From NCBI RefSeq assembly GCF_003334405.1, contig NZ_QOWM01000011.1: a stretch of DNA of 64,000 bases. One strand, 5' to 3'. The stretch comes from Escherichia coli (GTDB lineage Bacteria; Pseudomonadota; Gammaproteobacteria; Enterobacterales; Enterobacteriaceae). This document shows positions 51,059 to 57,633 of this stretch, piece by piece. The stretch's first letter is position 1, and each line of letters begins with the position of its first letter. The notes beneath the pieces are model-generated. The model searched no databases. It had not been told where the DNA came from and saw nothing but the letters and a program-made list of their open reading frames with translations. Both the position numbers and the translations under genes were made by a program.

Positions 51059-52483
51059 TTACGGCTGATAATAACCCACGCCAAGGTCGTTTTCTTTGCG
51101 GGTACGGGCAATCACTGATTCCGGTGTTTCTGCCACGCGCAGACCCATTTCATCTTCAGTACGCACCACTTTACCGCGCAGAGAGTTCGGGTAGACGTCG
51201 GTAATTTCTACATCGACGAATTTACCGATCATATCCGGCGTGCCTTCGAAGTTGACCACGCGGTTATTTTCCGTACGCCCGGAAAGCTCCATGATGCTCT
51301 TACGCGATGTACCTTCTACCAGAATACGCTGGGTGGTGCCGAGCATCCGGCGGCTCCACGCCATCGCTTGCTGATTAATGCGCTCTTGCAGAATATACAG
51401 ACGCTGCTTCTTCTCTTCTTCCGGAACATCATCAACCATATCGGCGGCTGGTGTACCCGGACGTGCAGAGAAGATAAAGCTGTAGCTCATGTCGAAATTG
51501 ACGTCGGCAATCAGCTTCATCGTTTTCTCGAAGTCTTCGGTGGTTTCGCCAGGGAAGCCAACGATGAAATCAGAACTGATCTGAATATCTGGACGCGCCG
51601 CACGCAGTTTACGGATGATCGCTTTGTACTCCAGCGCCGTATGGGTACGGCCCATCAGGTTCAGAATGCGATCGGAACCGCTCTGTACCGGCAGATGCAG
51701 GAAGCTCACCAGCTCCGGCGTGTCGCGATACACTTCGATGATATCGTCGGTGAATTCGATCGGATGGCTGGTGGTAAAGCGAATACGATCGATCCCGTCG
51801 ATCGCAGCAACCAGACGCAGCAGATCGGCAAACGATCCGGTGGTGCCGTCGTAGTTTTCACCACGCCAGGCGTTCACGTTCTGACCGAGCAGGTTGACTT
51901 CACGCACGCCCTGAGCCGCAAGCTGGGCAATCTCAAACAGAATATCGTCGGACGGACGGCTTACCTCTTCACCACGGGTGTAAGGCACCACGCAGTAGGT
52001 GCAATATTTATTGCAGCCTTCCATGATGGAGACAAACGCGGTCGGCCCTTCGGCGCGCGGTTCCGGTAGACGGTCAAACTTCTCGATTTCCGGGAAGCTG
52101 ATATCTACAACCGGGCTGCGGTCGCCACGCACGGAGTTGATCATCTCCGGCAGACGGTGCAGCGTTTGCGGCCCAAAAATAATATCGACATAGTGGGCGC
52201 GCTGGCGAATGTGCTCGCCTTCTTGCGATGCCACGCAGCCACCGACGCCGATAATCAGGTCTGGATTCTTCTCTTTTAACAGTTTCCAGCGACCCAACTG
52301 ATGGAAGACTTTTTCCTGAGCCTTCTCGCGGATTGAGCAGGTGTTCAGCAGCAGCACATCCGCTTCTTCCGCCACGTCGGTCAGTTGATAGCCGTGGGTG
52401 GCATCCAGCAGATCGGCCATCTTCGATGAATCGTACTCGTTCATCTGACAGCCCCAGGTTTTAATATGGAGTTTTTTGGTCAT
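51059..52483 (-). CDS. miaB: tRNA-i6A37 methylthiotransferase (radical SAM)
   Basis: 474-aa ORF with the radical-SAM motif CNKYCTYC and a C-terminal TRAM domain. Confidence 0.95.
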
Positions 52484-52628
52484 CGACTTGCTCTTGCGAA
52501 ATAGTAGCCAGGAATGCAGGGCGCATAGTGTAATGCTTTGCTGCCGTTGTGACCAGTATGAGCGTTATCAGCCCTTAGGGGTAAAAATCCTGTAAACTTA
52601 AAGCATATTGCTAACAGGATGATTGACC

Positions 52629-53804
52629 ATGACAAATCAACCAACGGAAATTGCCATTGTCGGCGGAGGAATGGTCGGCGGCGCACTGGCGCTGGGGCTG
52701 GCACAGCACGGATTTGCGGTAACGGTGATCGAGCACGCAGAACCAGCGCCGTTTGTCGCTGATAGCCAACCGGACGTGCGGATCTCGGCGATCAGCGCGG
52801 CTTCGGTATCATTGCTTAAAGGGTTAGGGGTCTGGGATGCAGTACAGGCTATGCGTTGCCATCCTTACCGCAGACTGGAAACGTGGGAGTGGGAAACGGC
52901 GCATGTGGTGTTTGACGCCGCTGAACTTAAGCTACCGCTGCTTGGCTATATGGTGGAAAACACTGTCCTGCAACAGGCGTTGTGGCAGGCGCTGGAAGCG
53001 CATCCGAAAGTAACGTTACGTGTGCCAGGCTCGCTGATTGCGCTGCATCGCCATGATGATCTTCAGGAGCTGGAGCTGAAAGGCGGTGAAGTGATTCGCG
53101 CGAAGCTGGTGATTGGTGCCGACGGCGCAAATTCGCAGGTGCGGCAGATGGCGGGAATTGGCGTTCATGCATGGCAGTATGCGCAGTCGTGCATGTTGAT
53201 TAGCGTCCAGTGCGAGAACGATCCCGGCGACAGCACCTGGCAGCAATTTACTCCGGACGGACCGCGTGCGTTTCTGCCGTTGTTTGATAACTGGGCATCG
53301 CTGGTGTGGTATGACTCTCCGGCGCGTATTCGCCAGTTGCAGAATATGAATATGGCACAGCTCCAGGCGGAAATCGCGAAGCATTTCCCGTCGCGTCTGG
53401 GTTACGTTACACCGCTTGCCGCTGGTGCGTTTCCGCTGACGCGTCGCCATGCGTTGCAGTACGTGCAGCCAGGGCTTGCGCTGGTGGGCGATGCCGCGCA
53501 TACCATCCATCCGCTGGCGGGGCAGGGAGTGAATCTTGGTTATCGTGATGTCGATGCCCTGATTGATGTTCTGGTCAACGCCCGCAGCTACGGCGAAGCG
53601 TGGGCCAGTTATCCTGTCCTCAAGCGTTACCAGATGCGGCGCATGGCGGATAACTTCATTATGCAAAGCGGTATGGATCTGTTTTATGCCGGATTCAGCA
53701 ATAATCTGCCACCACTGCGTTTTATGCGTAATCTCGGGTTAATGGCGGCGGAGCGTGCTGGCGTGTTGAAACGTCAGGCGCTGAAATATGCGTTAGGGTT
53801 GTAG
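52629..53804 (+). CDS. ubiF: FAD-dependent ubiquinone-biosynthesis hydroxylase
   Basis: ORF 52623..53804 (TTG in the track); ATG at 52629 gives MTNQPTEIAIVGGGMVGG with an FAD-binding GxGxxG (391 aa). Confidence 0.9.
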   Translation: MTNQPTEIAIVGGGMVGGALALGLAQHGFAVTVIEHAEPAPFVADSQPDVRISAISAASVSLLKGLGVWDAVQAMRCHPYRRLETWEWETAHVVFDAAELKLPLLGYMVENTVLQQALWQALEAHPKVTLRVPGSLIALHRHDDLQELELKGGEVIRAKLVIGADGANSQVRQMAGIGVHAWQYAQSCMLISVQCENDPGDSTWQQFTPDGPRAFLPLFDNWASLVWYDSPARIRQLQNMNMAQLQAEIAKHFPSRLGYVTPLAAGAFPLTRRHALQYVQPGLALVGDAAHTIHPLAGQGVNLGYRDVDALIDVLVNARSYGEAWASYPVLKRYQMRRMADNFIMQSGMDLFYAGFSNNLPPLRFMRNLGLMAAERAGVLKRQALKYALGL

Positions 53805-53814
53805 CCTTACAACA

Positions 53815-53900
53815 TTGCCGGATGCGTGCCAACCGTAGGTCGGATAAGACGCGGCAGCGTCGCATCCGACATTGAAGGATAAGACGTGTCAACATCGCAT
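53815..53900. repeat. REP/BIME palindromic elements downstream of ubiF
   Basis: tgccggatgcg...taggtcggataagacgcg...cgtcgcatccgacatt match REP-type palindromes. Confidence 0.6.
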
Positions 53901-53925
53901 TCGACATTGAATGAACGCAGAAAAG

Positions 53926-53953
53926 CAAAAAGCTCGCCGAAGCGAGCTTTTTT
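53926..53953. terminator. Bidirectional rho-independent terminator between ubiF and the tRNA operon
   Basis: aaaaagctcgccgaagcgagctttttt: 7-bp stem, GNRA-like loop, flanking A- and T-runs. Confidence 0.8.
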
Positions 53954-53957
53954 AATG

Positions 53958-54032
53958 TGGCTGGGGTACGAGGATTCGAACCTCGGAATGCCGGAATCAG
54001 AATCCGGTGCCTTACCGCTTGGCGATACCCCA
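53958..54032 (-). tRNA. glnV: tRNA-Gln (anticodon CUG)
   Basis: 75-nt reverse complement matches the tRNA-Gln cloverleaf with anticodon loop TTCTGAT and 3' CCA; could equally be called glnX. Confidence 0.9.
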
Positions 54033-54079
54033 ACAAATTGGTTTTGAATTTGCCGAACATATTCGACACATTCAGAATT

Positions 54080-54156
54080 TGGTGGCTACGACGGGATTCG
54101 AACCTGTGACCCCATCATTATGAGTGATGTGCTCTAACCAACTGAGCTACGTAGCC
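54080..54156 (-). tRNA. metU: tRNA-Met elongator (anticodon CAU)
   Basis: 77-nt reverse complement GGCTACGTAGCTCAGTTGG...CCA with anticodon loop CTCATAA. Confidence 0.9.
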
Positions 54157-54171
54157 AGATTGTTTCTTCGA

Positions 54172-54246
54172 TGGCTGGGGTACCTGGATTCGAACCAGGG
54201 AATGCCGGTATCAAAAACCGGTGCCTTACCGCTTGGCGATACCCCA
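54172..54246 (-). tRNA. glnW: tRNA-Gln (anticodon UUG)
   Basis: 75-nt tRNA-Gln with anticodon loop TTTTGAT; could equally be called glnU. Confidence 0.9.
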
Positions 54247-54269
54247 TCCGTACAACGCTTTCTGGTGAA

Positions 54270-54354
54270 TGGTGCGGGAGGCGAGACTTGAACTCGCACA
54301 CCTTGCGGCGCCAGAACCTAAATCTGGTGCGTCTACCAATTTCGCCACTCCCGC
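54270..54354 (-). tRNA. leuW: tRNA-Leu (anticodon UAG)
   Basis: 85-nt reverse complement GCGGGAGTGGCGAAATTGG...CCA with a long variable arm and anticodon TAG. Confidence 0.9.
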
Positions 54355-54363
54355 AAAAAAAGA

Positions 54364-54440
54364 TGGTGGCTACGACGGGATTCGAACCTGTGACCCCATC
54401 ATTATGAGTGATGTGCTCTAACCAACTGAGCTACGTAGCC
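54364..54440 (-). tRNA. metT: tRNA-Met elongator (anticodon CAU)
   Basis: 77-nt copy of the same tRNA-Met as 54080..54156. Confidence 0.9.
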
Positions 54441-54480
54441 ATCTTTTTTTTCGCGATACCTTATCGGCGTTGCGGGGCGC

Positions 54481-54509
54481 ATTATGCGTATAGAGCCTTG
54501 CAGCGTCAA
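54481..54509 (-). promoter_or_regulatory. Putative sigma70 stable-RNA promoter of the tRNA operon
   Basis: On the minus strand: TTGACG, 17-nt spacer, CATAAT, then the GC-rich discriminator GCGCCCCGC, about 40 nt upstream of the first tRNA. Confidence 0.55.
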
Positions 54510-54819
54510 CCTCTTTTTCAAGGAAAATTGCTCGAAAGTGACTGTTTGGTTAGGTTGCGAACAGCGTGGCGCTATATTCGTCAATTATTGTTTACTTTGT
54601 GTTTTTTCCCACCCTACAGCCATTCTTTTGTCATACAGGATGAAATTCGGAATTTAACAATAGTGGTGGGAAATTAATCTATGAAATACTGGCCTACAGT
54701 GATGAGTTGTCAAACAGTGATGTGGCAAACCCGGAACATTTCCTTACTGCATATCAGAATCAACAAGCACCTCAATAACTGAAACAGCCCCGGATTTCAC
54801 CGGGGCTGTTTCGCATTTC

Positions 54820-56484
54820 TTACTTATACGCCGACTGGTGAACACCAACCGCGCGACCAGACGGATCGTCCATTTTCTTGAACGCTTCATCCCATTCGAT
54901 CGCTTTAGCGGAAGAACAAGCGACGGAAGGACCGCCCGGCACGCACTCAGCGGCGCTCGGAAGCGGGAATAGTTCTTCAAAGATCTCCCGATACAAGTAC
55001 GCTTCTTTAGAGGTTGGCGTGTTGTACGGGAAGCGGAAGCGGGCAGTTTCCAGTTGCTGATCAGAAACCTGCTGCGCAGCCACTTCTTTCAGGGTGTCGA
55101 TCCAACTGTAACCGACGCCATCGGAGAACTGCTCTTTCTGCCGCCAGGCCACGCTTGCAGGCAGATACGCTTCAAAACATTCACGCAGGATGTGTTTTTC
55201 CATTTTGCCGTTACCGCACATTTTATCCTGTGGGTTAATACGCATCGCCACATCAAGGAATTTTTTGTCGAGGAACGGAACGCGTGCTTCCACGCCCCAG
55301 GCTGACATCGCTTTGTTGGCACGCGCGCAGTCATACATATGCAGGGCCAGCAGTTTACGCACCGTCTCTTCATGCAGTTCTTTGGCATTCGGTGCTTTGT
55401 GGAAGTAAAGATAACCGCCGAACACTTCATCAGAACCTTCACCGGACAGCACCATTTTAATGCCCATCGCCTTGATCTTACGCGACATTAAATACATCGG
55501 TGTTGAAGCGCGAATAGTGGTCACATCATAAGTTTCGATGTGGTAAATCACGTCGCGGATGGCATCCAGACCTTCCTGTACAGTGAAGTGAATTTCGTGA
55601 TGCACCGTGCCCAGATGGTTTGCCACTTCCTGGGCTGCTTTCAGATCCGGTGAACCCGGCAGACCTACAGCAAAGGAGTGTAACTGCGGCCACCAGGCTT
55701 CAGAGCGTTCCTGATCTTCCACGCGACGGGCTGCGTATTTCTTGGTGATAGCGGAAATAATTGAGGAATCCAGACCACCAGAAAGCAGCACACCGTAAGG
55801 CACATCAGACATCAGATGGCTTTTAACTGAATCTTCCAGTGCCTGACGCAGCTCGTTTTTGTCGGTCACGTTATCTTTCACCGCATCGTAGTCGAACCAG
55901 TCGCGATGATAGTAAGAACGGATTTCGCCGTCCTGGCTCCACAAATAGCTCCCCGCCGGGAACTCTTTAATCGTGCGGCAAACTGGCACCAGCGCTTTCA
56001 TTTCTGAGGCCACATACAGCTGACCGTGTTCGTCATACCCCATATACAGTGGGATGATCCCCAGATGGTCGCGACCAATCAGGTAGGCATCTTTTTCGCT
56101 GTCGTACAGTGCAAAGGCAAACATGCCCTGCAAGTCGTCGAGAAATTCCGGCCCTTTTTCCTGATACAGCGCGAGGATCACTTCACAGTCAGACCCGGTC
56201 TGGAACTGGTAACGATCGCCATATTCGGCGCGCAATGCCTGGTGGTTGTAGATTTCACCGTTTACCGCCAGTACGTGGGTTTTTTGTTGGTTGTAGAGAG
56301 GTTGCGCCCCCGCGTTAACGTCAACAATTGACAGACGTTCGTGGGCGAGAATGGCGTTATCGCTGGCATAAATACCGGACCAGTCCGGGCCACGATGACG
56401 CATCAGGCGTGACAGCTCGAGGGCTTTCTTACGCAGCTCAACTGCGTCTGTTTTGATATCGAATACGCCAAAAATTGAACACAT
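54820..56484 (-). CDS. asnB: Asparagine synthetase B (glutamine-hydrolysing)
   Basis: ORF 54820..56565; start at MCSIFGVFDI (554 aa) with N-terminal Cys nucleophile and PP-loop SGGLDSS. Confidence 0.95.
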   Translation of the reverse strand: MCSIFGVFDIKTDAVELRKKALELSRLMRHRGPDWSGIYASDNAILAHERLSIVDVNAGAQPLYNQQKTHVLAVNGEIYNHQALRAEYGDRYQFQTGSDCEVILALYQEKGPEFLDDLQGMFAFALYDSEKDAYLIGRDHLGIIPLYMGYDEHGQLYVASEMKALVPVCRTIKEFPAGSYLWSQDGEIRSYYHRDWFDYDAVKDNVTDKNELRQALEDSVKSHLMSDVPYGVLLSGGLDSSIISAITKKYAARRVEDQERSEAWWPQLHSFAVGLPGSPDLKAAQEVANHLGTVHHEIHFTVQEGLDAIRDVIYHIETYDVTTIRASTPMYLMSRKIKAMGIKMVLSGEGSDEVFGGYLYFHKAPNAKELHEETVRKLLALHMYDCARANKAMSAWGVEARVPFLDKKFLDVAMRINPQDKMCGNGKMEKHILRECFEAYLPASVAWRQKEQFSDGVGYSWIDTLKEVAAQQVSDQQLETARFRFPYNTPTSKEAYLYREIFEELFPLPSAAECVPGGPSVACSSAKAIEWDEAFKKMDDPSGRAVGVHQSAYK

Positions 56485-56730
56485 AACCTTCTCCGTTAAC
56501 CTGGTATTTGTTGCTTGTTGTGTTTGCTTGTTTAAAAAAATGCCGCAAAGCAGCACTGTGCGCAAGCGATTTGGCGGTGAAAAAATAAAAAACGTAATGG
56601 TGATTGTCGATTGGTGAAAAAAGGTCTGGTGTGAGGATATATTTATTGATGAATCGATAATTTTTAGCGGGTTTTATTGAATGTTTATATTTTACGGGGG
56701 CCAAATTGCTGACAAAGTGCGATTTGTTCA

Positions 56731-56830
56731 TGCCGGATGCGGCGTGAACGCCTTATCCGGCCTACAAAAGCATGAAAATTCAATATATTGCAGGAGCTGC
56801 GTAGGCCTGATAAGCGTAGCGCATCAGGCA
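56731..56830. repeat. REP/BIME cluster between asnB and umpH
   Basis: tgccggatgcggcgtgaacgccttatccggcctac and gtaggcctgataagcgtagcgcatcaggc match REP consensus palindromes. Confidence 0.65.
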
Positions 56831-56880
56831 GTTTGGCGTTTGTCATCAGAGCCAACCACGTCCGCAGACGTGGTTGCTAT

Positions 56881-57633
56881 TCAGATAACGTCGATTTCAG
56901 CGACTGACGGGTAAATCCAGCTGGGGCGGAAAGGCATACTGTCGATATCGTCGAGCGACGAAACACCAGAAAGCACCAGAATCGTCTCCAGACCTGCCTG
57001 GAAGCCGGCCAGAATATCGGTACGCAGGTTATCGCCGACAATCACCGTTTCTTCCGAATGCGCCTGCATTTTGTTTAATGCTGCGCGGATGATCCACGGG
57101 CTGGGCTTACCAACATAGAACGGTTTGCGCCCGGAGATTTTCTCAATCCCTGCACACAACGCGCCACAAGCGGGATAAAAACCGCGCCCGTGGGTGTCCG
57201 GATTGGTGGCGATAAAACGTGCACCGTTAGCGACGAAATAGGCTGCTTTATGCATCATGTCCCAGTTGTAGGAACGCGTTTCGCCAACAATCACGAAATC
57301 AGGGTTCACATCGGTAATAGTGAAACCGGCTTTGTACAGTTCATGAATCAGTGCGCCTTCGCCCACCACATACGCTTTCTTGCCTTCCTGGCGACGCAGG
57401 AAATCGGCAGTCGCCATCGCAGAGGTATAAAACACGCTGTCAGGTACATCGACACCTGCGGTGGCAAAGCGGTTCGCCAGATCTTGCCCAGTCTGCGAAG
57501 GATAGTTGGTCAGCAACACCAGCGGCAGGCCTTTATCCATAATCCCGTGCAAAAATTCCGCTGCACCCGGTACGGCGACGTTATCGTGCATCAGCACGCC
57601 GTCGATATCGCAAATTACATTTTTAATGGTCAT
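56881..57633 (-). CDS. umpH: HAD-superfamily UMP phosphatase
   Basis: 250-aa ORF with the HAD motif I DIDGVL. Confidence 0.9.
   Translation of the reverse strand: MTIKNVICDIDGVLMHDNVAVPGAAEFLHGIMDKGLPLVLLTNYPSQTGQDLANRFATAGVDVPDSVFYTSAMATADFLRRQEGKKAYVVGEGALIHELYKAGFTITDVNPDFVIVGETRSYNWDMMHKAAYFVANGARFIATNPDTHGRGFYPACGALCAGIEKISGRKPFYVGKPSPWIIRAALNKMQAHSEETVIVGDNLRTDILAGFQAGLETILVLSGVSSLDDIDSMPFRPSWIYPSVAEIDVI

What the first reader, a model, noticed from the sequence alone, without database searches (positions are those of the whole stretch)
54481..54509. Textbook stringent-type promoter upstream of the tRNA operon
On the minus strand TTGACG, a 17-nt spacer and CATAAT are followed by the GC-rich discriminator GCGCCCCGC, the signature of growth-rate and ppGpp-regulated stable-RNA promoters. 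An AT-rich stretch further upstream (about 54530..54700) could serve as an UP element or Fis sites.
Basis: partly seen in the sequence, partly recalled or inferred. Interest (0 to 1): 0.3.

Follow-up and report, generated by a model that had tools for sequence, protein, structure and literature searches.

The report
Known E. coli metT tRNA promoter

Summary
On the minus strand, TTGACG (54509-54504), a 17-nt spacer, CATAAT (54486-54481) and GCGCCCCGC lie 41 nt upstream of the first tRNA gene. The window is E. coli, between asnB and ubiF, so this is the promoter of the metT (old name supB-E) tRNA operon. It is identical to K-12 from -167 to +33.

- **Chance:** hexamer similarity alone is at chance level in the window. 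Position, conservation and a mapped start make the case.
- **Conservation:** in 112 distinct Enterobacterales orthologues the -35, the -10, the discriminator and +1..+16 are 94-100% conserved, while most spacer positions vary.
- **Mapped start:** published dRNA-seq places a high-confidence start 6-8 nt downstream of CATAAT, in the same register as at tyrT.
- **Regulators:** EcoCyc, cited in a paper, lists Fis as activator and Lrp and ppGpp as repressors.
- **Upstream elements:** The UP-like A/T tracts sit at 54511-54532, next to the -35. Two conserved Fis-like 15-mers lie at 54548-54562 and 54568-54582. The region 54590-54700 is poorly conserved.

Verdict: already known, low interest. Minor curiosities are the invariant leader box shared with tyrT and a 5-gene operon where K-12 has 7.

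The parts
54504..54509 (-). -35 hexamer TTGACG (5 of 6 to TTGACA)
   Evidence: It is 96-100% conserved per position in 112 distinct Enterobacterales orthologues.
54487..54503 (-). 17-nt spacer. Most positions vary between species, apart from T at 54490 and G at 54487.
   Evidence: Per-position identity is 24-87% for most positions, in contrast with the flanking invariant hexamers.
54481..54486 (-). -10 hexamer CATAAT (5 of 6 to TATAAT), with no TG extended -10
   Evidence: It is 98-100% conserved.
54474..54480 (-). G+C-rich discriminator GCGCCCC, with C at the second position after the -10 as in rrnB P1 and tyrT
   Evidence: It is 98-100% conserved. The same GCGCCCCGC occurs at tyrT and GCGCC at rrnB P1 and leuQ.
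54473..54475 (-). Transcription start (G 54473 or the two C residues just upstream)
   Evidence: The class I dRNA-seq TSS at U00096.2 696390-696391 (PMC4681348 supplement) was mapped through the NC_000913.3 metT coordinates. It is in the same register as the tyrT TSS in the same table. A T7 template for the native precursor starts at CGCAACGCC (PMC3985628).
54441..54472 (-). Rest of the roughly 33-nt 5' leader removed by RNase P. Its first 16 nt (GCAACGCCGATAAGGT, counted from G 54473) are nearly invariant and can form a weak GCC-GAUAA-GGU hairpin.
   Evidence: The CCGATAAGG box is shared with the tyrT leader. RNase P processing of this operon is described in PMC2241853.
54511..54532 (-). UP-element-like A/T tracts: A5 at 54514-54518 and TTTT at 54524-54527
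   Evidence: 11 of 14 specified positions of the full UP consensus and 7 of 8 of the proximal subsite match, each shifted by 1 nt (the consensus is from my own knowledge of Estrem et al. 1998/1999). The A5 tract is 99-100% conserved and the T tract 79-96%.
54548..54562 (.). Fis-like 15-mer centred at -82 (GTTCGCAACCTAACC)
   Evidence: It matches GNNYRNNWNNYRNNC. The end G is invariant and the end C is 99% conserved. The pattern is present at this position in 96 of 112 orthologues, against 0.29 matches expected per shuffled upstream region. Binding was not tested.
54568..54582 (.). Second Fis-like 15-mer centred at -102 (GACGAATATAGCGCC)
   Evidence: The end G and C are invariant. 46 of 112 orthologues match the stricter pattern GNNBRWWWWWYVNNC here. 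The E. coli copy itself misses it at one position. This is inferred only.
53958..54440 (-). The five tRNA genes driven by the promoter: Met(CAU), Leu(UAG), Gln(UUG), Met(CAU), Gln(CUG)
   Evidence: ARAGORN, Rfam and the RefSeq annotation of the identical strain.
53927..53952 (-). Intrinsic terminator of the operon
   Evidence: an 11-pair stem followed by a T run. The terminator of the metT transcript is described in PMC2241853.
54780..54813 (.). Strong hairpin just after the asnB stop codon. It insulates the tRNA promoter from asnB read-through.
   Evidence: 14 pairs, 9 of them G-C.

Best explanation
The site is metTp, the single sigma-70 promoter of the E. coli metT-leuW-gln...-metU-gln... 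tRNA operon (historically supB-E).

RNA polymerase holoenzyme recognises TTGACG and CATAAT across an optimal 17-bp spacer. It starts at or just before G 54473. The polycistronic precursor it makes is about 545 nt here, ends at the terminator at 53927-53952, and is cut by RNase P and RNase E into five tRNAs.

The G+C-rich discriminator GCGCCCC has C two bases after the -10. By analogy with rrnB P1 and tyrT, this should give a short-lived open complex. Output would then fall when ppGpp/DksA rise and track growth rate. This step is inferred and listed in a database; it was not tested here.

Activity is probably boosted by alpha-CTD contacts with the conserved A5 and T4 tracts at -41..-54. It is probably also boosted by Fis bound to conserved 15-mers centred near -82 and -102. 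The positions are inferred from conservation; Fis activation is listed in EcoCyc.
For: - **Identity of the locus:** the window is 100% identical to an E. coli chromosome, with asnB upstream and ubiF downstream. The promoter is identical to MG1655 from -167 to +33.
- **Anatomy:**
- **Phylogenetic footprint:** in 112 distinct upstream sequences from Enterobacteriaceae, Yersiniaceae, Erwiniaceae, Hafniaceae, Morganellaceae, Budviciaceae and Pectobacteriaceae, the -35 is 96-100% conserved, the block from -14 to +16 is 94-100%, and most spacer positions are 24-87%.
- **Mapped start:** a class I dRNA-seq TSS (PMC4681348 supplement) was calibrated against tyrT in the same table.
- **No competing start:** there is no other reverse-strand TSS between it and 699579 in that table.
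- **Family resemblance, read from MG1655 itself:** tyrT TATGAT-GCGCCCCGC, rrnB P1 TATAAT-GCGCCACC, leuQ TAGAAT-GCGCCTCC, thrU TAGAAT-GCGCGC, serT TATAGT-GCGCGTC, valU TATAAT-GCGACTCC.
- **Database listing:** Fis (+), Lrp (-), ppGpp (-), from EcoCyc as quoted in PMC10100675 Table 2.
- **Upstream elements:**
- **Informative exception:** a reduced-genome endosymbiont keeps the -35 but has lost the G+C-rich discriminator.
Against: - Nothing contradicts the promoter assignment.
- **Limits on the regulatory part:** no kinetic or ppGpp/DksA measurement was available to me for this promoter. The primary papers (Nakajima, Ozeki and Shimura 1981/1982, from my own memory) are not in the searchable library.
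- **Departures from rrnB P1:** the 17-bp spacer and 10/12 hexamers differ from the 16-bp spacer that helps make rrnB P1 complexes unstable. The degree of stringent control could therefore be milder.
- **Weak motif evidence:** the degenerate Fis pattern is uninformative on its own in this window (97 matches against 135 expected). The E. coli -102 site misses the stricter pattern. The UP match is shifted by 1 nt.
- **Start precision:** the exact start nucleotide is uncertain by 1-2 nt, because the U00096.2 to U00096.3 offset (+777) comes from my own knowledge.
- **Sampling:** the orthologues are related to each other and were selected through an exact tRNA-junction anchor.
Confidence: 0.9

Rival explanations
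1. It is the genuine metT promoter but behaves as a strong, essentially constitutive sigma-70 promoter. On this view the G+C-rich discriminator is family decoration, and tRNA output is set mainly by gene dosage, Fis and processing, with ppGpp/DksA playing little part.
For: The 17-bp spacer and near-consensus hexamers favour stable complexes, unlike the 16-bp spacers of rrnB P1, tyrT, leuQ and valU. A G+C-rich discriminator is necessary for stringent control but known not to be sufficient (established knowledge). I found no direct ppGpp assay for this promoter.
Against: EcoCyc lists ppGpp as a repressor of this unit. The discriminator is invariant in 112 orthologues, including the C two bases after the -10. 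That goes well beyond a requirement for mere G+C richness. The non-consensus C of CATAAT and G of TTGACG are also conserved at 96-98%, which suggests selection against a fully consensus, over-stable promoter.
Confidence: 0.07
2. The conserved block is mainly something other than a promoter, such as a leader RNA processing or stability element or a binding site for another protein. Transcription of the tRNAs would then come from elsewhere, for example read-through from asnB.
For: Conservation runs 16 nt into the transcribed leader. Some divergent lineages keep hairpin potential there with different sequences.
Against: A TAP-enriched 5' end with a leading edge of transcription maps right here. 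A 14-pair hairpin follows asnB. The conservation pattern is two invariant hexamers with a variable spacer of fixed length, which is what a promoter shows and a leader element does not. The leader hairpin is weak, about -5 kcal/mol.
Confidence: 0.02
3. It is a chance consensus match with no function.
For: Sites of at least 10/12 occur at chance frequency in the window: 8 observed against about 10 expected.
Against: The composite with a 7/7 G+C discriminator is expected 0.2 times per window. This one also lies 41 nt upstream of a tRNA operon, is conserved across an order of bacteria, and coincides with a mapped TSS.
Confidence: 0.01

Closest known systems
E. coli K-12 metTp, the promoter of metT-leuW-glnUW-metU-glnVX (the supB-E operon of Nakajima, Ozeki and Shimura 1981)
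   Same: The sequence is identical from -167 to +33. The flanking genes asnB and ubiF are the same. It is the same promoter.
   Different: In the window it drives 5 tRNA genes, not 7. One Gln(UUG) and one Gln(CUG) copy are absent.
tyrT promoter (tRNA-Tyr; the classic discriminator and Fis/UAS model)
   Same: ATGCGCCCCGC spanning the end of the -10, the discriminator and the start is shared, as is the CCGATAAGG leader box. The dRNA-seq start register is the same. Both have Fis (+) and ppGpp (-) in EcoCyc.
   Different: tyrT has TTTACA / 16 bp / TATGAT, against TTGACG / 17 bp / CATAAT here. The leader box is offset by 1 nt. The tyrT Fis sites are reported near -71, -91 and -122 (my own knowledge), whereas the conserved Fis-like sites here centre at -82 and -102.
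rrnB P1 (the rRNA promoter that serves as the paradigm for ppGpp/DksA, iNTP, UP-element and Fis control)
   Same: Both have AATGCGCC after the -10, with C at the second discriminator position. Both have A/T tracts directly upstream of the -35. Both have a Fis-like site at -102 (the rrnB positions are from my own knowledge).
   Different: rrnB P1 has a 16-bp spacer, TTGTCA, a start 9 nt after the -10 and a near-consensus full UP element. metT has a 17-bp spacer, a start 6-8 nt after the -10 and a partial UP match (11 of 14, shifted by 1 nt).
argX promoter (pArgX; argX-hisR-leuT-proM), shown to be inhibited by ppGpp (PMC5137449, abstract)
   Same: It shares the start-site context CCCCGCAACG and is also a tRNA operon promoter with a G+C-rich discriminator.
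   Different: Its hexamers differ (TAGACA / 17 / TATTAT), its discriminator is CCACCCCC and not GCGCCCC, and it has no GATAAGG box.

Membership tests
Sigma-70 promoter | -35 and -10 hexamers close to TTGACA and TATAAT, 16-18 bp apart | tested here: met
   TTGACG / 17 / CATAAT scores 10 of 12.
Sigma-70 promoter | A primary (5'-triphosphate) transcript end 6-9 nt downstream of the -10 | tested here: met
   A class I dRNA-seq TSS lies at U00096.2 696390-1 (PMC4681348 supplement). It maps to 54473-54475 through and is calibrated on tyrT. This is literature data, not a new experiment.
Sigma-70 promoter | Hexamers under selection while the spacer sequence is free and its length is fixed | tested here: met
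   In 112 orthologues the hexamers are 96-100% conserved, most spacer positions are 24-87%, and the spacing is kept.
Stringent / growth-rate-regulated stable-RNA promoter (rrn P1, tyrT class) | It drives rRNA or tRNA genes | tested here: met
   Five tRNA genes begin 33-35 nt downstream.
Stringent / growth-rate-regulated stable-RNA promoter (rrn P1, tyrT class) | G+C-rich discriminator between the -10 and +1, with C and not G two bases after the -10 | tested here: met
   GCGCCCC is 7 of 7 G+C, has C at position 2 and is invariant across orthologues. The same pattern occurs at tyrT, rrnB P1, leuQ, thrU and serT.
Stringent / growth-rate-regulated stable-RNA promoter (rrn P1, tyrT class) | Suboptimal 16-bp spacer, as in rrn P1, tyrT, leuV and valU | tested here: not met
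   The spacer is 17 bp. argX and serT also have 17 bp, so this feature is common in the class but not obligatory.
Stringent / growth-rate-regulated stable-RNA promoter (rrn P1, tyrT class) | Inhibition by ppGpp/DksA and a short-lived open complex | not testable with these tools
   The only support is a database listing: EcoCyc gives ppGpp as a repressor, quoted in PMC10100675 Table 2.
Stringent / growth-rate-regulated stable-RNA promoter (rrn P1, tyrT class) | UP element contacted by alpha-CTD at about -40 to -60 | tested here: inconclusive
   11 of 14 positions of the full consensus and 7 of 8 of the proximal subsite match, each 1 nt out of register. The A5 tract is 99-100% conserved. No binding or activity data are available.
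Stringent / growth-rate-regulated stable-RNA promoter (rrn P1, tyrT class) | Fis sites upstream, in helical phase with the core promoter | tested here: inconclusive
   Conserved 15-mers with G and C ends centre at -82 (96 of 112 orthologues) and -102 (46 of 112), 20 bp apart. The motif alone is uninformative. Fis activation is listed in EcoCyc. No footprint is available.

The most novel reading that the evidence does not exclude
The nearly invariant transcribed box at +6..+16 (GCCGATAAGGT) is shared with the tyrT leader as CCGATAAGG. It is absent from six other tRNA operon promoters I examined. It could be a distinct, uncharacterised downstream element of a subset of tRNA promoters. Possibilities include a 5' hairpin (stem GCC/GGU, loop GAUAA) that protects or guides processing of the precursor, or a -10-like GATAAG sequence that causes sigma-70-dependent promoter-proximal pausing. 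On this reading it would not be mere promoter context.
Probability: 0.1. Interest if true: 0.35.

Novelty: already known. Interest (0 to 1): 0.1.

Why it matters
It matters little as a discovery. The promoter of this essential tRNA operon, which holds all the elongator tRNA-Met, tRNA-Leu(UAG) and tRNA-Gln genes of E. coli (PMC11480407), has been sequenced since the early 1980s and is catalogued with its regulators.

The analysis does add three things:
- An order-wide footprint that delimits the functional parts at single-base resolution: the hexamers, the discriminator, the A5/T4 tracts and two Fis-like sites.
- The corrected position of the UP-like element.
- A conserved leader box that nobody appears to have explained.

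Tried and rejected
- **Literature searches.** 'supB-E' returned nothing. One metT/Fis search was wasted on METTL-family papers because of word-start matching. Thomason et al. 2015 is not held. The Cappable-seq supplement is truncated before this coordinate. The main text of Mohanty and Kushner 2008 gives processing but no metT start site.
- **Fis consensus as evidence on its own.** Rejected: 97 matches against 135 expected in the window. Only positional conservation is informative.
- **Lrp-site scan.** It gave one 3-mismatch hit at -201 against 0.87 expected. This is not evidence, so I place no Lrp site.
- **Leader RNA structure as the explanation for +1..+16 conservation.** The hairpin is weak and there is almost no variation to test covariation. 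This is left open.
- **A second, upstream promoter.** There is a TTGACA at 54713, but it has no acceptable -10 hexamer. No TSS is reported there.
- **Hexamer score as proof.** Rejected after the resampling control.

Full report
**1. What is in the sequence**

The consensus scan finds it as a 10-of-12 site, the best in 52000-57000.

ARAGORN and Rfam place five tRNA genes directly downstream:
- Met(CAU) at 54440-54364
- Leu(UAG) at 54354-54270
- Gln(UUG) at 54246-54172
- Met(CAU) at 54156-54080
- Gln(CUG) at 54032-53958

An intrinsic terminator follows at 53952-53927. Upstream, the asnB reading frame ends at 54820 and is followed by a 14-pair hairpin at 54780-54813.

**2. Is it more than chance?**

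Hexamer similarity alone is not. The window has 8 sites of at least 10/12 on its two strands, and about 10 are expected. Requiring a 7/7 G+C discriminator leaves only this site, against 0.2 expected per window. It also lies on the right strand 41 nt from a tRNA operon. The real evidence is in sections 4 and 5.

**3. Where the window comes from**

The 1.2-kb region is 100% identical to E. coli strain ECCTRSRTH03 and 95-99% identical to essentially all 5,425 complete E. coli genomes. asnB lies upstream and ubiF downstream.

[quoted passage not shown] From my own knowledge, it is the supB-E operon sequenced by Nakajima, Ozeki and Shimura in 1981. The K-12 sequence from -167 to +33 is identical to the window, so K-12 data apply directly.

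**4. Phylogenetic footprint**

I used the metT-leuW junction as an anchor. The anchor does not include the promoter. This fetched 120 loci from other species. They cover seven families:

| Family | Genera sampled |
|---|---|
| Enterobacteriaceae | Escherichia, Citrobacter, Salmonella, Klebsiella, Enterobacter |
| Yersiniaceae | Serratia, Rahnella |
| Erwiniaceae | Tatumella |
| Hafniaceae | Edwardsiella |
| Morganellaceae | Proteus, Morganella |
| Budviciaceae | Budvicia |
| Pectobacteriaceae | Sodalis and relatives |

Conservation in 112 distinct upstream sequences:

| Element | Per-position identity |
|---|---|
| TTGACG (-35) | 96-100% |
| Most spacer positions | 24-87% |
| Block from G-14 through CATAAT, GCGCCCC and +1..+16 | 94-100% |

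Two invariant hexamers at a fixed distance with a free spacer are the signature of a promoter under selection. The non-consensus bases, C of CATAAT and the final G of TTGACG, are themselves conserved. This suggests selection against a perfect, over-stable promoter (inference).

One informative exception is the reduced-genome secondary endosymbiont of Ctenarytaina eucalypti. It keeps TTGACG but has TAAAAT followed by an A+T-richer GCCAAGT.

**5. Transcription start**

The E. coli dRNA-seq table of Romero et al. 2014 (PMC4681348, reference genome U00096.2) lists a class I start on the reverse strand at 696390-696391. Class I means TAP-enriched and at a leading edge of transcription.

metT is at 697057-697133 in NC_000913.3. 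With the version offset of +777 at this locus, the start falls on the two C residues at 54475-54474. The offset comes from my own knowledge; the lacZ coordinates fit the 776-bp part of it. With an offset of +776 the start would be C 54474 and G 54473.

An internal calibration removes the dependence on the offset. The same table puts the tyrT start at 1286889-1286890 and flags it as a RegulonDB-known start. This is exactly the same register relative to the shared GCGCCCCGC as at metT. In both promoters the G lies 776 above the lower coordinate.

The same laboratory's T7 template for the native metT precursor begins at CGCAACGCCGATAAGGTA (PMC3985628).

No other reverse-strand start is listed between this one and 699579.

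**6. Family resemblance, read from MG1655 itself**

| Promoter | -10 hexamer | Following sequence |
|---|---|---|
| metT | CATAAT | GCGCCCCGC |
| tyrT | TATGAT | GCGCCCCGC |
| rrnB P1 | TATAAT | GCGCCACC |
| leuQ | TAGAAT | GCGCCTCC |
| thrU | TAGAAT | GCGCGC |
| serT | TATAGT | GCGCGTC |
| valU | TATAAT | GCGACTCC |
| argX | TATTAT | CCACCCCCGCAACGG |

metT belongs to this group. It shares 11 nt (ATGCGCCCCGC) and the leader box CCGATAAGG with tyrT, and CCCCGCAACG with argX. The argX promoter is described as ppGpp-inhibited in the abstract of PMC5137449.

The role of the G+C-rich discriminator in stringent and supercoiling control of stable-RNA promoters is summarised in PMC8422995 and PMC4681348.

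metT differs from rrnB P1, tyrT, leuQ and valU in having a 17-bp spacer where they have 16 bp.

**7. Regulators**

EcoCyc, as quoted in Table 2 of PMC10100675, lists Fis as activator and Lrp and ppGpp as repressors for this transcription unit. It also lists a REP element after the terminator. I could not reach primary measurements of ppGpp sensitivity for this promoter. That step therefore rests on the database listing and on analogy.

**8. The upstream region**

Conservation is structured:
- An A5 tract at -45..-41 (54518-54514) is 99-100% conserved.
- A TTTT tract at -54..-51 (54527-54524) is 79-96% conserved.
- Two 15-bp blocks are bounded by a near-invariant G and C: -89/-75 (54562-54548) and -109/-95 (54582-54568).

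The A/T tracts match 11 of 14 specified positions of the UP consensus and 7 of 8 of the proximal subsite, each 1 nt out of register. The consensus is from my own knowledge of Estrem et al.

The block centred at -82 matches GNNYRNNWNNYRNNC in E. coli and in 96 of 112 orthologues. The block centred at -102 matches a stricter Fis pattern in 46 of 112 orthologues but not strictly in E. coli. Shuffled upstream regions give 0.29 and 0.055 matches. The degenerate pattern by itself carries no information in this window: 97 matches against 135 expected.

The two centres are 20 bp apart, and -102 coincides with a known rrnB P1 Fis position (my own knowledge).

Beyond about -115, conservation falls to background. 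In some E. coli strains a 430-bp insertion sits at about -220 without disturbing anything downstream.

So the UP-like element is at 54511-54532, not in 54530-54700. Fis-like sites occupy 54548-54582, and 54590-54700 shows no sign of function.

**9. Mechanism**

*Shown or taken from published data:*
- It is a sigma-70-type promoter, with a start at 54473-54475.
- It makes a polycistronic tRNA precursor that ends at the terminator and is processed by RNase P and RNase E (PMC2241853; PMC3985628).

*Inferred:*
- A short-lived open complex caused by the GCGCCCC discriminator, giving inhibition by ppGpp/DksA and dependence on growth rate.
- Stimulation through alpha-CTD contacts with the A/T tracts.
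- Stimulation by Fis at -82 and -102.

**10. Verdict**

Interest is low. The most novel reading left open is that the invariant +6..+16 box shared with tyrT is a separate downstream element. I give that about a 10% chance.

Noticed in passing
window 53958-54440: The operon has 5 tRNA genes here (Met, Leu, Gln-UUG, Met, Gln-CUG), against 7 in MG1655 and in the other E. coli genomes inspected. One copy each of the tandem Gln(UUG) and Gln(CUG) genes is missing, presumably through recombination between the repeats. Only 24 of 5,425 genomes match the window version at 99% or better.
   Followed up: partly
window 54458-54468 (leader +6..+16): The transcribed box GCCGATAAGGT is at least 94% conserved in 112 Enterobacterales orthologues. 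It is shared with the tyrT leader as CCGATAAGG but is absent from the lysT, valU, argX, thrU, leuQ and serT upstream regions. It can form only a weak GCC-GAUAA-GGU hairpin. Its function is unexplained.
   Followed up: partly
L129 1506-1933 (E. coli NZ_CP099754.1); breakpoint corresponds to window ~54690-54694: Some E. coli strains carry an insertion of about 430 bp, with a 145-aa hypothetical ORF on the opposite strand, between asnB and the metT promoter. It lies about 220 bp upstream of the start and leaves the promoter region intact.
   Followed up: partly
L095 about 1640-1716 (secondary endosymbiont of Ctenarytaina eucalypti, NC_018419.1): The orthologous promoter keeps TTGACG but has TAAAAT and an A+T-richer discriminator (GCCAAGT). 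This may reflect relaxed stringent-type control in a reduced genome.
   Followed up: no
L012 (Budvicia diplopodorum) and L056 (Enterobacteriaceae bacterium B14): These two genomes have two metT-leuW junctions in one locus. In Budvicia each copy has its own promoter, and the second has a diverged discriminator (GCGCTGC) and leader. In L056 the second copy is internal to the operon and has no promoter of its own.
   Followed up: no
window 53800-53920: REP-like palindromic repeats (…TGTCGGATGCGACGCTGCCGCGTCTTATCCGACCTACG…) lie just after the operon terminator, between it and ubiF. EcoCyc lists REP60ab here according to PMC10100675.
   Followed up: no
MG1655 U00096.2 696311, inside metT; corresponds to about window 54395: The same dRNA-seq table lists a class II site inside the first tRNA-Met gene. 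Class II means TAP-enriched with no leading edge of transcription. It is probably an artefact of abundant tRNA or a processing end.
   Followed up: no
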